From: Eledone cirrhosa
Lineage: Eukaryota
Reading direction: 5' to 3'
Assembly (NCBI GenBank): GCA_964016885.1
Contig: OZ024748.1
Span: forward strand, 23,126,001 to 23,190,000
Length of the DNA: 64,000 nucleotides
Part shown: positions 1,592-59,229 of the stretch, in pieces
How positions within the stretch are numbered: the first letter of the stretch is position 1
Layout: the number at the start of each line of letters is the position of its first letter
Translations under genes and position numbers: made by a program
The notes under the pieces: model-generated
Database searches by the model: none
Told to the model about the DNA's origin: nothing
Seen by the model: the letters and a program-made list of their open reading frames with translations, nothing else

Positions 1592-1872
1592 GCAAAGAAA
1601 ATGACACAGTGCAATGAAGAAATATATTAGTTTTACGCTTGATATAGTAGGAAAAGGGCCTTAATATTTCAGACGCTATTCCTTCACCAGAAAATACAAT
1701 GAGAAATCAAAGAACAATTAGAAAGATAGAGGAGAATGGGCAGCGGAAGAAAAGAAAAAAAATTCTTTGAGAAAAACAGGTCTATTCCGCCGTTGTTGTA
1801 TAGGAAAATCAGTTGATCCTGTTTGAAAAGGCAGTGATCGAACGCGTCTAGCTGAAAAGGAAAAAAGTCGTT
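1592..1872 (-). mobile_element. Penelope-like/retrozyme-type remnant with a degenerate hammerhead core
   Basis: Minus strand CTGGTGAAGG-AATAGCG-TCT-GAAA-TATTAAG at ~1660-1690. Visibly homologous to 38425-38510 (ACGCTTGATAT...CTTAA...TTTC...CCTTCA). Flanked by (TA)n and (CA)n. Confidence 0.45.
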
Positions 1873-2639
1873 TTACACACACACACACACACACACACAC
1901 ACACACACACACACACACACACACACACACACACACACACACACACATATATATATATATATATATATATATACAGTTTACGAAAGTCACTGATGTTATT
2001 TCAGCAATCTCCGGCCATACCTCACTCCGTCAATGAGACAAGAAGCTTGCAGTTGTGAAACTGCAACTCGATATAAGAGTGCACATATAATAGTTGTATA
2101 GTGCAGTGCAGTGGCTGTGATTAGGAAAAGATATATTATGTACCTAACTCTTGAACAGATTCAGTTTCTATGCAATATTCTTCTGCCCAACAATAGTTAT
2201 TAAAATTGCAGTGTGCAGAAATTACGTATTATCAGAAGATATTATGAAATTGGGAAATTGCATTTCCGCAGCACGTTACGGCCAATTCAATACATAGGTC
2301 ATTAGTGTATGCATACTAGTGTGTATCGCTCTGTTACTAAATCTAGCAGTCCTATGCTATCATAACACGTCACCTCTTGAATAGAGGAAGACCATTGTAT
2401 GAGAAAAACACATTAAGGTGGGTGAATTCAAAATGTAGAATTCAATATAGAACCCAACGAGTAAGGTGTATACATACATATATGCATGTAGACATATAGA
2501 CACATACATATATATACACGCATGTAAAGGCTGACTAGCAAATAAAGTCGAACTTTCAATATTGGAAAGCTTTAACCTCCTACAGGAAACATGTCAGTTG
2601 AAACTGGAAGTAAAGATATACAGTTTTCGAAAGTTACTG

Positions 2640-3016
2640 ATGCTATTTGCTCCCAGATACAGGAAATCCTCAACCAGCTCTAGTGGCTTCCCGCCCACAT
2701 TCATAATCTTCTCTGGCTCCTTGATGTTCTCTATCAGATATTTCGTCTTACTCTCATTCATTCTCAGCCCCACATTCACTGACACAGTCTCCACCTCTCG
2801 CATTAACCCCCCATCCTCCTTCACTGTGTTTGTCATCAGAGCTATGTCGTCAGAAAATTTAGCCTTAACTCTCCTGCTCCGAGCCAGTGCTACACTAAAG
2901 CCCGAGTACTGGTGTTTCTCCAGTGAAAGGTGCATACAATAGGCCACCGTGATGATAAAAAGGTAGGGAGCCAATATATCGCCCTGGAGAACTCCAGCCA
3001 GTATCTCAAAGAACCA
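2640..3016 (-). mobile_element. Reverse transcriptase fragment of an RTE-like non-LTR retrotransposon
   Basis: Translation WFFEILAGVLQGDILAPYLF...FSDDIAL...VGLRMNESKTK...LELVEDFLYLG matches RT motifs QG, (Y/F)xDD, GL-N-KT and YLG. Confidence 0.85.
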
Positions 3017-3964
3017 CTATATCCTCCCTCTCTCTCTTTATCCCACTCTTACTAAACCTCTTCCACCATTACCAAATCGTTCCAGAAAGAGGTTATCAAA
3101 CACGAAGAAAGAAATGATACTAAGTAATGATGTGACGGTGTGGTGGTGGGGTGACGGGGTATGGTGGTGGTGGGGTGACGGGGTATGGTGGTGGTGGGGT
3201 GACGGGAAGGGAGAATGATAAATATAAGGATGACAACTATATAAAGAAAAAAGTAAGAAAAAAGTAAGACAGAAAAACAATAAGAAATACTGATAGAGAG
3301 ATAGAGAGATCGAGACGAGAGAGAGAGAGAGAGAGAGAGAGAGAGAGAGATAGAGAGAGAGAGAGAGAGAGTGTGTGTGTGTGTGTATATGTGTGTGTGC
3401 GTATGTCAGTGTGTGTGAGTGAGAATATGTGTGTGTGTGTATCTGAAGTGCGATAAAAAGCAATTGAAAGATAGAAAGTATGTGAGCGATAAGGGATTGA
3501 GATGGCGGGAAGAGAGATAGATATATAGATAGATAGATATATAGATAGTGAGAGAGAGAGAGACCTGATTAACTAACTGACAGACAGACATACATACATA
3601 CAGACAGACAGACTGACAGACAGACAGACTGACAGACAGACAGACTGACAGACAGATACTAGATGAGAAGAAATAAGGATGGAAGCTAAAGAAATATTGA
3701 TTGGGAAACGAAGGAAATGTTGAAAACATTCAAGAAATAAATAAAAAAGGGAAAGGAATTTGTACAAAAAAGTCTCCAAATCAAACCCGAACCCCTAAAA
3801 TGAAGGAAAGAATGAGTAAAGATTAATTAAGGAAAGAATAAAAGAAAGAGAGGACATTGGGAATGACAGATGAAGGAGTGAATAAGGGGAAGAAGGTGGG
3901 GGAAAGAGAAATGGGGCGGGGAGAAGTTGAGAGGGATAAGTAGGGAGTAGAAGAAAGATGAGTT

Positions 3965-56515: not shown

Positions 56516-57234
56516 AAATATGGTTTTATAAATATAGTTTCCATTTATTAATGTCGTACATATATATATATATATATATATATATATATATATATATATA
56601 TAGGCAGAAAGTTCAGTAAATCCGTAGAAAACTGGTGAGAGAACCAAAGTCAGCACTCGATGCTAAGCAGAATGTATACAATAAGAACAAAGTGGAGATG
56701 TTACATAGATTTATTGCTTAATCCTGGTTACAGATGTTTCCCAAGCAGCTGGCTCGTGGTCTGGGATGGCACTCCCAGACCAGACTCCATGACTGCCTGA
56801 TTCCCAGACCAGTGTTAACACAACAAAAATCACATAAAATCTGTGGACGAACCAGCAAAAACACAAACAAATAAACTGTTTCATAGATGCCATTTTGTTA
56901 CTGAAAAGTACAACTACTTTCTGTAGAATGTATATATACAGTATATATATATATATATATATATATATATATATATATATATATATATATATATATATAT
57001 ATATATATATATATATATATATATATATAATGTAGGAGGTGAGTTTTATTGTAGCACAATAAAGCAATGCAAATATCGGATAAGTAGCATTCTACAGGTT
57101 ATAGTGAAATGCGCATAATAAAATACTTGGAACTCTTTTAACCATCTTTTGATCTTATATTATATATATATATATATATATATATATATATATATGAAAT
57201 ATAAGAATCAAAGAACTGTTCAAAACATTATTGT

Positions 57235-57279
57235 GCTTACATCTGTTTCCTCCAAACCGAGGTTTGGATTCTTCGGAGC
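57235..57279 (-). ncRNA. Hammerhead-like motif with one core mutation
   Basis: GCT-CCGAAGA-A-TCCAAAC-CTCG-GTTTGGA-G-GAAA-C-AGAT-GTA-AGC; stems I-III pair; CCGA instead of CTGA. Confidence 0.5.
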
Positions 57280-58399
57280 AATTTATTAATGCATGGACAG
57301 TTATATGACCTCCTTTTCAGCCGAGAGACATACCAATACATATTCAAACATTGATACATATTCAAAGATTGTGGGTCAACATTCATTACAGAATTTAGAG
57401 TGGCAGTACACACTTCGAGATTACATTTATATTAATAGGTACAATCAAAAATCAAAAATATAGGTTAAAATACAACATGAATCAATTACATTTTATTATA
57501 CATATTTCGGATGTACAACAGTACGTCCTCATCAGACAAAATATATAATTGACAAAATATAATTGAGTATATATACTTCGATGTATGTATGTGGGGGCGT
57601 GTGTGTCTGTGCATGTAGGCGTACGTGTGTGTATGCATAGATGGGTATGTGTCTGCATGTGTGTGCGTTGTTATGTGTGTATTTTAGTATGTGTGGGTGC
57701 TTACTCTGAAGTCTGAGCAGACGTGTGAAGTACTGAACCCAGCATGACTCCATTGAAATGTGTCGGGCGGAAAAACGGTTGGTGAACCGTGTGGCAGCAG
57801 ATACTGGTCAGAACTTGTGATGACGTGGAGTAAAAACAGCCAATGGCATGACAAGAGTGGAAATAGGGTTTTTTTGAGGGTGATATCACCCCAGTGATAA
57901 AATTTTCTCCGGACGTAACACCCGTGTCTGAAAGAACCCGCAGAAGTAGAATCAGCCAGATCCATACAAGGACCATGACTCGAGCTACATGCCGGCGAAA
58001 CATTTGTAACACGAAATAAACTAAGTCCAGATGCATCACTGATTTTTCGTTTTCTTTATAATATCTACACTCTACTCTGATGAATATCGAGTGCTAATTT
58101 TGGCATACCGCCTATAGAAGCACCATAGCTACCTCTATACACAACTATATATATATATATATATATATATATATATATATATATATATATATATAAAATA
58201 AGAGTAGTTAAGATTAATTCACCATAATTGTTTATTGCTAGGACCTGCTTATCCTCAAGAAGTTACAACGTAACAACTAAGAAAACAACACTCTTTTGCT
58301 ATATGTATATATATATATATATATATATATATATATATATATAGCGGCAATGAATTAGTTTTGCGAGGTTTTTTATATGAAATCGTGTGTCGAAACAAA

Positions 58400-59229
58400 T
58401 ATTGTTATACTTGGGGAGGGTCATATTTGTGTAATATTGCCAGAATTAATAACAGAACACACTCACTGTTTGGTTGGTTTTCGCTTCTCGCTTCTGTGTC
58501 TTTTATATCGGTAATCTAACTTACTCGGTCCTCAATGTTGCCATTGACTGACCGACGGTCAAAAATAATACAGATACAATATAGACACAAACACATATAT
58601 ATAGTTTATCATAAATCTTTCGTTGCACATCTGCAACATCGTCAGTGGTGTTATATTTTCCTCCTGTTGTATTGTATGTCTACGCCATTTTTATTCAGTC
58701 TGTCTATATATTTATTTATTTATTTGCTTGTTTGTTTATTTTATTTGTCTTCTTTGCGCATGCGTTTGCGTGTGTGTATAGTGTTTTGTTTGCTGTGTGA
58801 TGGATGACTAGTGTGTGTTTATGTGCTTGTTGTTATTGTGCTTGTGTATGTATTTATTTATTTATTTATTTATTTATATTATTTTAAAACAAACAAACAA
58901 ACAAATAAATAAATAAATATATAGACAGACTGAATAAAAATGGCGTAGACATACAATACAACAGGAGGAAAATATAACACCACTGACGATGTTGCAGATG
59001 TGCAACGAAAGATTTATGATAAACTATATATATGTGTTTGTGTCTATATTGTATCTGTATTATTTTTGACCGTCGGTCAGTCAATGGCAACATTGAGGAC
59101 CGAGTAAGTTAGATTACCGATATAAAAGACACAGAAGCGAGAAGCGAAAACCAACCAAACAGTGAGTGTGTTCTGTTATTAATTCTGGCAATATTACACA
59201 AATATGACCCTCCCCAAGTATAACAATAT
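58400..59229. mobile_element. Large inverted repeat (~340-bp arms, ~150-bp spacer), Penelope-like inverted pLTR structure
   Basis: 58400-58737 is the reverse complement of 58891-59229; each arm has a hammerhead-like core; (TA)n outside. Confidence 0.8.

What the first reader, a model, noticed from the sequence alone, without database searches (positions are those of the whole stretch)
1655..59030. A set of diverse hammerhead-bearing short elements living in (TA)n microsatellites
Hammerhead-like cores (CUGANGA...GAAA) occur in about seven unrelated sequence contexts: 1660/38480 (-), 7067-7105 (-, CAGAAGA-TCCC-GTTAA-GGGT-GAAA), 40556/58983 (+, plus the inverted arm), 40980 (both strands), 41624 (-)/56453 (+), 48832 (+), 49981 (+) and 57235 (-). 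Almost all lie in 100-800-bp non-coding islands bounded by (TA)n, and several form inverted or direct terminal repeats. Minimal type I hammerheads, inverted pLTRs and microsatellite targeting are known traits of Penelope-like elements and retrozymes. This density and diversity suggests an uncatalogued set of ribozyme-carrying non-autonomous elements. Several cores have single mutations and may be inactive.
Basis: partly seen in the sequence, partly recalled or inferred. Interest (0 to 1): 0.75.

Follow-up and report, generated by a model that had tools for sequence, protein, structure and literature searches.

The report
Penelope retroelement ends carrying hammerhead ribozymes
The hammerhead-shaped RNA motifs are real and are mostly the cut-short ends of known Penelope-type jumping genes that sit in TA repeats, an estimated 300,000 in this genome, and two recently spreading families carry a changed core letter in nearly every copy that likely weakens self-cutting (untested).

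Summary
In 0.8 Mb of evenly spaced genome samples: 83 intact-core hammerheads against 0-1 in shuffles (about 3e5 genome-wide, a floor); 87% have (TA)n within 300 nt 3' (nulls 19-33%). The reading 'uncatalogued non-autonomous elements' is mostly wrong: 6 of the 8 contexts trace to protein-coding Penelope-like elements (four Hydra, one Neptune relative, one other clade). One (48837) is a 693-nt non-coding tandem unit, retrozyme-like; one (40980) is unresolved. Hydra elements with hammerheads in (TA)n, including in Octopus, are published (Craig 2021). Added here: five families each end at two fixed sites, and two-armed insertions pair one long with one short end (68 of 70). Two distant Hydra families with many intact ORFs carry fixed core changes, U4C (86 of 87) and U4A (37 of 37). 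The scan noted the U4A family and a two-end pattern before on other DNA of this genome. Cleavage and expression are untested. New members of a known kind.

The parts
1592..1874 (-). Family F, old copy; minimal type I hammerhead 1690-1663 with decayed core (CTGGTGA)
   Evidence: 80-83% over 92-106 nt to the 3' end of a Neptune-type family whose ORF was read
7034..7266 (-). Family E (Hydra), two-armed truncated insertion: short-end arm with hammerhead 7100-7060 (CAGAAGA, U4A fixed in the family) plus a tail-only long-end arm at the other side
38420..38700 (-). Family F, second old copy; minimal hammerhead 38507-38480 (CCGATGA, copy-level decay; relatives CTGATGA)
40496..40809 (+). Family C, 3' end of a PLE with C-terminal GIY-YIG and CX4CxxC linker; hammerhead 40556-40589 with only 2 bp of stem I; ends at the short site
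40841..41043 (.). Family D, two-armed palindrome (long arm -, short arm +); hammerhead 40980-41018(+), stem III ACAG/CTGT; no ORF link found
41492..41819 (-). Family B, 3' end with long tail; hammerhead 41679-41631; sister subfamily is a full Hydra element
48373..49208 (+). Family G, 1.2 units of a 693-nt non-coding tandem unit (142-nt terminal direct repeat); hammerhead 48837-48908 with branched stem II; retrozyme-like
49981..50213 (+). Family H (Hydra), decayed copy; hammerhead 49983-50061 (CGGACGA; family CTGACGA)
56374..56558 (.). Family B, two-armed insertion: tail-only long arm (-) 56374-56440 and short arm (+) with hammerhead 56460-56508
57196..57481 (-). Family A (young Hydra), 3' terminal 286 bp; hammerhead 57276-57238 (CCGAAGA, U4C fixed in the family); ends at the short site
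57482..57545 (-).
58344..59225 (.). Family C, two-armed insertion (long arm -, short arm +); hammerheads 58645-58612(-) and 58983-59016(+)

Best explanation
Most of these islands are 5'-truncated ends of Penelope-like retrotransposons (mainly the Hydra clade) whose terminal repeat holds a type I hammerhead, and they were likely written into (TA)n tracts by the element's own endonuclease and reverse transcriptase. Shown: family membership and ORFs, (TA)n at the 3' ends, two fixed 3' end sites per family, and long+short pairing of the two arms. Inferred: the GIY-YIG domain cuts both strands of a (TA)n tract; each DNA end primes reverse transcription inside the RNA, one at the short and one at the long start site, 26-340 nt downstream of the hammerhead; early termination leaves one or two short arms, so the hammerhead is over-represented simply because it lies next to the start sites; new copies land in the TA tracts beside older ones, which builds the clusters. 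Family G is likely a non-autonomous passenger (retrozyme-like) copied by the same enzymes from a tandem or circular RNA. The hammerheads probably cut precursor RNA as dimers through their palindromic stem III in most families, but cutting is likely not required for spread, since families A (U4C) and E (U4A) amplified with a changed core.
For: Full-length family A: pLTR-ORF-pLTR plus inverted truncated arm, 828-832 aa with RWR, DKT, CxCX5C, C-terminal GIY-YIG, CxxC, CxH; 54 of 55 scored ORFs without stops at 98-100%. Family E: Hydra ORF ending about 980 nt upstream; 27 of 111 matches lie in stop-free frames of 712-714 aa (my count); 12 of 12 fetched intact copies carry an A4 hammerhead. H: Hydra ORF end 750-1140 nt upstream in 9 of 25 loci. 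B: sister with pLTR-ORF-pLTR, 89% over 237 nt. C: ORF in L189, 92-93% to the window. F relative: RT that follows the printed Neptune1_Ap rows and a GIY-YIG 650-840 nt upstream in 5 of 25 loci. 87% of 83 intact hammerheads have (TA)>=6 within 300 nt 3' against 33% (same locus), 19% (any locus), 45% on the 5' side and 25% for 84 SINE-like copies. Two end sites in A, B, C, D, E; 68 of 70 classifiable two-armed insertions are long+short, 14 of 14 in the even sample. Stem covariation across 15 B-like sequences: 88.8% paired, 34 two-sided changes, 0 of 500 shuffles as high. 49 of 83 have a fully self-complementary stem III; two family A copies co-fold into the double-hammerhead form (-35.1 against 2 x -11.7 kcal/mol). 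Literature: Craig 2021; Frangieh 2024, both strands cut, two internal RT starts, hammerhead mutants still insert.
Against: No cleavage, expression or enzyme data here. Families D and I have no ORF link (0 of 25 and 1 doubtful of 20 loci). The window's F copies match the Neptune family only over the hammerhead region. The empty-site test for pre-existing TA targets was inconclusive. [quoted passage not shown] Family E does not fold into the hammerhead as its lowest-energy form. In one search the count of pairs with a two-sided change (8) did not beat shuffles (107 of 500), and related sequences can exceed that control without selection.
Confidence: 0.87

Rival explanations
1. The islands are a set of short non-autonomous ribozyme elements (retrozymes) that spread as small circular RNAs.
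For: Family G has a 693-nt non-coding unit, two hammerheads 693 nt apart in one locus, the end motif twice in 7 of 15 loci (window copy included) and a longest ATG frame of 44 aa. One F-like locus shows two hammerheads about 410 nt apart. D has no ORF link.
Against: Six of eight contexts extend into PLE ORFs, with staggered 5' ends and fixed 3' ends. True for G and possibly D and I only.
Confidence: 0.1
2. The (TA)n tracts are made or lengthened by the element (reiterative copying of an AU-rich start site by a telomerase-related RT) rather than being old targets.
For: The short end sites of A, B, C and E fall on ATAT-like letters in the element; 61 of 70 two-armed insertions have a simple-repeat tract on both outer sides; TA arrays are 4.4% of the sample.
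Against: The long end of family A is not followed by TA repeats in full-length copies, yet abuts (TA)n in insertions, which fits a host target equally well; Craig 2021 and Frangieh 2024 treat AT-rich DNA as the target. My empty-site search gave no clean case either way.
Confidence: 0.12
3. The two arms come from fold-back (snap-back) copying of one cDNA rather than from two priming events.
For: Some insertions are near-perfect palindromes (40841-41043).
Against: In about 15 pairs listed, including window 7034-7266 and 56374-56558, the long-end arm is the tail only and shares little or nothing with the short-end arm, so neither arm can be the template of the other.
Confidence: 0.05
4. The motifs are chance matches in AT-rich repeat DNA.
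For: No Rfam hammerhead hit; weak folding z-scores.
Against: 83 against 0-1 in five shuffles of 0.8 Mb; family-wide conservation and covariation; position in the pLTR as in published Hydra elements.
Confidence: 0.01

Closest known systems
Hydra-clade Penelope-like elements (Craig et al. 2021, PMC8557442; section 11, passages, and supplement Files S1 and S2 read), including Hydra-1_Obim of Octopus bimaculoides
   Same: C-terminal GIY-YIG, DKT, CxCX5C linker, CxxC and CxH, no CCHH, type I hammerhead at the 3' end, (TA)n preference, inverted truncated arm, tail at one end; U-U flanks at the base of stem II occur in many published rows
   Different: Units of 3.3-4.2 kb (published: generally under 3 kb); tails of 50-165 nt (published 30-40); many families at once; family-fixed U4C and U4A cores, whereas all 26 Hydra rows in File S2 read CTGA (that table lists descriptor-canonical motifs only)
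[quoted passage not shown]
   Same: Type I, short palindromic stem III, extra base after A9, mostly single truncated copies, opposite-strand pairs 100-700 bp apart, high family diversity
   Different: Counts there are about 2,000-9,000 per genome; my estimate here is about 3e5 with another descriptor, so not like for like
Poseidon element of Anolis (Frangieh et al. 2024, PMC11167929; main text read)
   Same: AT-rich target, both strands cut, two internal RT start sites that define the tail, hammerhead not needed for insertion in vitro
   Different: Other clade; hammerhead overlaps the ORF start there, lies 190-280 nt before it here; strict long+short pairing of arms was not reported in the text I read
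Metazoan non-LTR retrozymes (Cervera and de la Pena 2020, PMC7229834, passages and section 15 read; Li et al. 2026 bioRxiv 10.64898/2026.07.22.740005, part 1 of 5 and passages read)
   Same: Family G: non-coding head-to-tail unit, one type I hammerhead per unit, low GC (33%)
   Different: 693 nt against 150-450 nt; mostly 1-2.3 units with a PLE-type fixed end in (TA)n; RNA circles untested
Neptune-clade PLE (Neptune1_Ap rows printed in the Craig supplement)
   Same: DKGG, GVAMG..MGP.YANLF, YIDD, C..C linker and GIY-YIG in the relative of family F
   Different: Window copies are old and match only around the hammerhead

Membership tests
Type I hammerhead ribozyme | CUGANGA, stem II, GAAA, stem III, UH site, stem I in that order | tested here: met
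   for B, C, D, G, I and family forms of F and H; stem I only 2 bp in C
Type I hammerhead ribozyme | U at core position 4 | tested here: not met
   Family A C4 in 86 of 87, family E A4 in 37 of 37; met in the other families
Type I hammerhead ribozyme | Compensatory changes in the stems | tested here: met
   15 B-like sequences; one of five measures did not beat shuffles and relatedness is not controlled
Type I hammerhead ribozyme | Match to an Rfam hammerhead model | tested here: not met
   (150 of 207 rows seen)
Type I hammerhead ribozyme | Site-specific self-cleavage | not testable with these tools
   needs in vitro transcription or RNA end mapping
Hydra-clade PLE | Single ORF, RT with C-terminal GIY-YIG | tested here: met
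   A, E, B sister, H; Pfam finds nothing on the intact A and E proteins
Hydra-clade PLE | RWK and DKT motifs | tested here: met
   DKT in A, E, B sister; RWR in A and B sister, LWR in E
Hydra-clade PLE | CxCX5C linker, no CCHH, CxxC and CxH at the C end | tested here: met
   A, E, B sister; linker and CxxC in H
Hydra-clade PLE | Hammerhead in the terminal repeat and (TA)n insertion | tested here: met
Hydra-clade PLE | Generally shorter than 3 kb | tested here: not met
   hammerhead-to-hammerhead 4171 nt (A), 3260 nt (E), 3806 nt (B sister); a tendency in the paper, not a strict criterion
Hydra-clade PLE | Placement inside the clade on an RT tree with published references | not tested
   reference proteins were seen only as printed text; assignment rests on motifs and by-eye comparison
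Neptune-clade PLE (relative of family F) | DKG, CX2-5CxxC linker, CCHH GIY-YIG | tested here: met
   applies to the relative, window copies are 80-83% alike over 76-106 nt only
Neptune or Nematis (family C) | Clade-specific RT motifs | tested here: inconclusive
   CX4CxxC linker and C-terminal GIY-YIG but DKS, and no like motif in the printed alignments searched
Non-LTR retrozyme (family G) | Non-coding tandem unit with one type I hammerhead per unit | tested here: met
Non-LTR retrozyme (family G) | Unit of 150-450 nt | tested here: not met
   693 nt
Non-LTR retrozyme (family G) | Abundant linear and circular monomer RNA | not testable with these tools
   needs RNA data or northern blot

The most novel reading that the evidence does not exclude
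Two distant Hydra lineages (40-46% protein identity) have independently fixed a change at hammerhead position 4 and still spread to thousands or tens of thousands of copies with intact ORFs. This would be natural proof that Penelope-type elements keep the hammerhead fold as a protein-binding or RNA-pairing handle that sets up two-ended, paired reverse transcription, not as a cutter, or else that their protein rescues a core thought to be crippled; all in a genome with the highest hammerhead load yet counted (3e5 or more).
Probability: 0.3. Interest if true: 0.68.

Novelty: new member of a known kind. Interest (0 to 1): 0.42.

Why it matters
The role of the hammerhead in Penelope-like elements is an open question (Craig 2021 and Frangieh 2024 both say so). 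This genome offers young, intact families with canonical and with U4C or U4A cores side by side, so the need for cleavage can be tested with natural sequences. The near-strict long+short pairing of arms is a quantitative constraint on the insertion mechanism. For annotation, several hundred thousand short islands that Rfam and Pfam miss can be filed as Penelope ends. The kind of element itself is known.

Tried and rejected
Rfam scans gave only microsatellite-driven miRNA matches and no hammerhead. Pfam gave nothing useful on the Hydra ORFs, only sub-threshold RVT_1 and GIY-YIG on the Neptune pieces. The DNA search with family C returned nothing because common words are skipped; copies were found in other loci instead. 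My first idea that family A was a Naiad was dropped (C-terminal endonuclease, DKT). Sequencing runs: no RNA holder listed; contigs of two runs laid on the family A end listed no other letter at the U4C position, but they are not RNA on record and show nothing on expression. Empty-site test: only matches between neighbouring abundant ends, no clean case. No ORF found for D in 25 loci and 3 long stretches; for I one Hydra end about 1.2 kb upstream in 1 of 20 loci, not verified. The A-sister ORF in L286 has no recognisable 3' end to compare position 4. Hit 39583(-) rejected as probable chance. Pair counts leave out pairs where an arm runs into the ORF or off the locus (30 of 104). The descriptor misses family D, the U3-A8 family and weak copies, so the density is a floor. 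Lunse et al. 2017 on PLE hammerhead variants could not be read (seen only as a citation); it may already hold position-4 variants. Perreault's figures and supplements on core variants were not seen. Literature searches that found no paper on cephalopod hammerhead counts or on fixed U4 variants in PLEs.
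Full report
Setting. The window is G000:C8:23126001-23190000 of a 3.0-Gb genome. About half of it is tandem repeat (31,895 of 64,000 bases masked). The host is likely an octopus-type cephalopod. This is inferred from the repeat make-up, from named homologs of the family A protein (Argonauta hians 38%, Solemya velum 33%) and from earlier notes, and was not tested directly.

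1. Observation. My descriptor (core with at most one change, stems I-III, UH site) gives 10 hits with score 20 or more in the window, against a mean of 0.35 (max 2) in 20 local dinucleotide shuffles; one of these, 39583, is probably chance. In 80 evenly spaced 10-kb stretches it finds 83 intact-core and 24 one-change motifs, against 0-1 and 3-6 in five shuffles. That is about 104 per Mb, or 3.1e5 in the genome (bootstrap 2.2-4.1e5), in 32 clusters of which about five single hits look like chance. It is a floor: family D (14 in the sample) and an abundant family read by eye as a U3-A8 core with long stem III (34 half-motifs) escape the descriptor. Rfam finds none of them, and single-strand folding z-scores are weak.

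(TA)n link. 87% of the 83 intact motifs have (TA)6 or longer within 300 nt on the 3' side. The nulls are 33% for random points in the same loci (max 47% in 1000 draws), 19% for any locus, 45% on the 5' side and 25% for either end of 84 SINE-like copies.

2. What the islands are. Family A (57196-57481) is the last 286 bp of a young family (40 scored copies at 99%). L021 holds a full copy: inverted truncated arm, pLTR, ORF, 1.4-kb 3' region, pLTR. The protein has RWR, DKT, CxCX5C, a C-terminal GIY-YIG without CCHH, CxxC and CxH, the markers of the Hydra clade (Craig 2021, section 11); 54 of 55 scored ORFs have no stop. Family E (7034-7266) ends about 980 nt after another Hydra ORF. 27 of 111 matches sit in stop-free frames of 712-714 aa, and 12 of 12 fetched intact copies carry its hammerhead. 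Family H (49983) follows a Hydra ORF in 9 of 25 loci. Family B (41679, 56460) is 89% alike over 237 nt to a pLTR-ORF-pLTR Hydra copy. Family C (40556, 58645, 58983) is 92-93% alike to the end of an element with RT, CX4CxxC linker and C-terminal GIY-YIG, clade unresolved. The old F copies (1690, 38507) are 80-83% alike around the hammerhead to a family whose RT follows the printed Neptune1_Ap rows. Family G (48373-49208) is 1.2 units of a 693-nt non-coding head-to-tail unit. D (40980) and I (57535) are high- and low-copy families with the same end pattern but no verified ORF. Hydra ORF pieces cover 3.3% of the sample, in 22 of 80 stretches.

End anatomy. A, B, C, D and E each end at two fixed sites about 163, 85, 50, 70 and 90 nt apart, both next to (TA)n. 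In tail-out two-armed insertions one arm ends at the long and the other at the short site: 72 of 74 classifiable pairs of 104 listed, 68 of 70 after stricter removal of duplicates, and 14 of 14 in the even sample. In about 15 pairs the long arm is the tail alone, so fold-back of one cDNA cannot explain it.

Core variants. At 1690, 38507 and 49983 the copy has decayed, while the families read CTGANGA in 19 of 22 (F) and 11 of 14 (H). At 57276 and 7100 the change is the family state: C4 in 86 of 87 A copies, A4 in 37 of 37 E copies (most copies were picked by similarity searches). A and E proteins are only 40-46% identical, with canonical-core relatives as close or closer, so the two changes are likely independent. 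Mutations in the CUGA turn gave low activity in a full pairwise scan of a type III hammerhead (Roberts 2023, PMC9901934, passages). A viroid U4C variant loses much activity in vitro but stays infective (Perreault 2011, PMC3088659, passages and section 8). Family A keeps a perfect 8-nt stem III palindrome and co-folds as a double hammerhead; family E does not fold into the hammerhead as its best form. Most families keep a canonical core and covarying stems, which argues for selection on function in general.

3. Mechanism. Shown: ORF links, (TA)n at the 3' ends, two end sites, long+short pairing. Inferred from these and from Frangieh 2024: the GIY-YIG domain cuts both strands of (TA)n, each end primes RT at one of two internal sites just downstream of the hammerhead on a tandem or longer-than-unit RNA, and early stops leave short arms. 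In family A the long site lies about 55 nt before the ORF's first ATG in the next unit. Hammerheads therefore pile up as by-products, and repeated landing in TA tracts next to older copies makes the clusters. G is likely a passenger of these enzymes. Cleavage, probably as dimers (49 of 83 have fully palindromic stem III), is likely in canonical families and likely weak or absent in E and perhaps A; all untested. Confidence 0.87. Rivals: mainly retrozymes (0.10, true for G); TA tracts made by the element (0.12, empty-site test inconclusive); fold-back (0.05); chance (0.01).

4. Comparison. Works like, and by motifs belongs to, Hydra-clade PLEs (A, E, H, B); a Hydra family from Octopus bimaculoides with (TA)n preference and hammerhead is already in the Craig supplement. 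Differences: longer units and tails, many families, position-4 variants absent from the 26 Hydra rows of File S2 (which lists canonical motifs only). PLE hammerheads as scattered single motifs and opposite-strand pairs are in Cervera 2014. Published counts I read: about 9,000 (Xenopus tropicalis), about 5,000 (mussel), 126,247 (axolotl), with other descriptors. The 2026 Octopus vulgaris repeat annotation lists Penelope-like families and has no occurrence of 'ribozyme' or 'Hydra' in its main text (passages); another cephalopod repeat paper names Penelope as abundant (passages). Lunse 2017 could not be read and may bear on the variants.

5. Novelty. New members of a known kind. The parts a specialist would want are the load, the near-strict arm pairing and the two fixed core variants in families with intact ORFs.

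6. Verdict. Observation confirmed; interpretation partly supported; interest 0.42.

Noticed in passing
window 14969-31226: 16-kb array of a 54-bp unit (about 300 copies, 95% alike) with a 5,478-codon open frame; one frame reads as Asn/Thr/Cys-rich, another as Thr/Pro mucin-like repeats. Could be a giant mucin-type exon or a satellite without stops.
   Followed up: partly
window 33856-36506: 90-bp tandem array, 29.5 copies at 97%, with long open frames on the minus strand.
   Followed up: no
window 115-808, 8284-9484, 33117-33284, 51156-53320, 61745-63354: Another young repeat family (93-99% alike) whose pieces are bounded by (TACA)n/(TATG)n instead of (TA)n, in direct and inverted pieces; no hammerhead core seen.
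   Followed up: no
window 1158-1446, 6780-6989, 40190-40479, 57030-57160, 41128-41192: Further (TA)-bounded palindromic or two-armed islands without a hammerhead; several match tails of other abundant families.
   Followed up: partly
L115, L116, L118 and others (even sample): Very abundant family (34 half-motifs in 0.8 Mb) whose hammerhead reads by eye as a U3-A8 core with a long stem III and long stem II.
   Followed up: partly
window 57476-57545: The family I hammerhead fragment is fused to the 5' end of the family A piece over a few shared letters: template switch or nested insertion.
   Followed up: partly
window 50238-50607: The 3' tail of the family H copy is repeated in a 124-bp tandem with TA and GT tracts.
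   Followed up: no
window 58077 (+): Exact CTGATGA 69 nt from a TA tract with no downstream GAAA; not tested as a permuted hammerhead.
   Followed up: no
L143 4830-5338: An F-like copy with two hammerheads about 410 nt apart and a different upstream sequence: possible non-autonomous derivative of the Neptune family.
   Followed up: partly
L189 2000-8000: Near-full PLE of family C with a DKS motif and an Asn-rich N-terminus that fits none of the printed Neptune or Nematis rows searched.
   Followed up: partly
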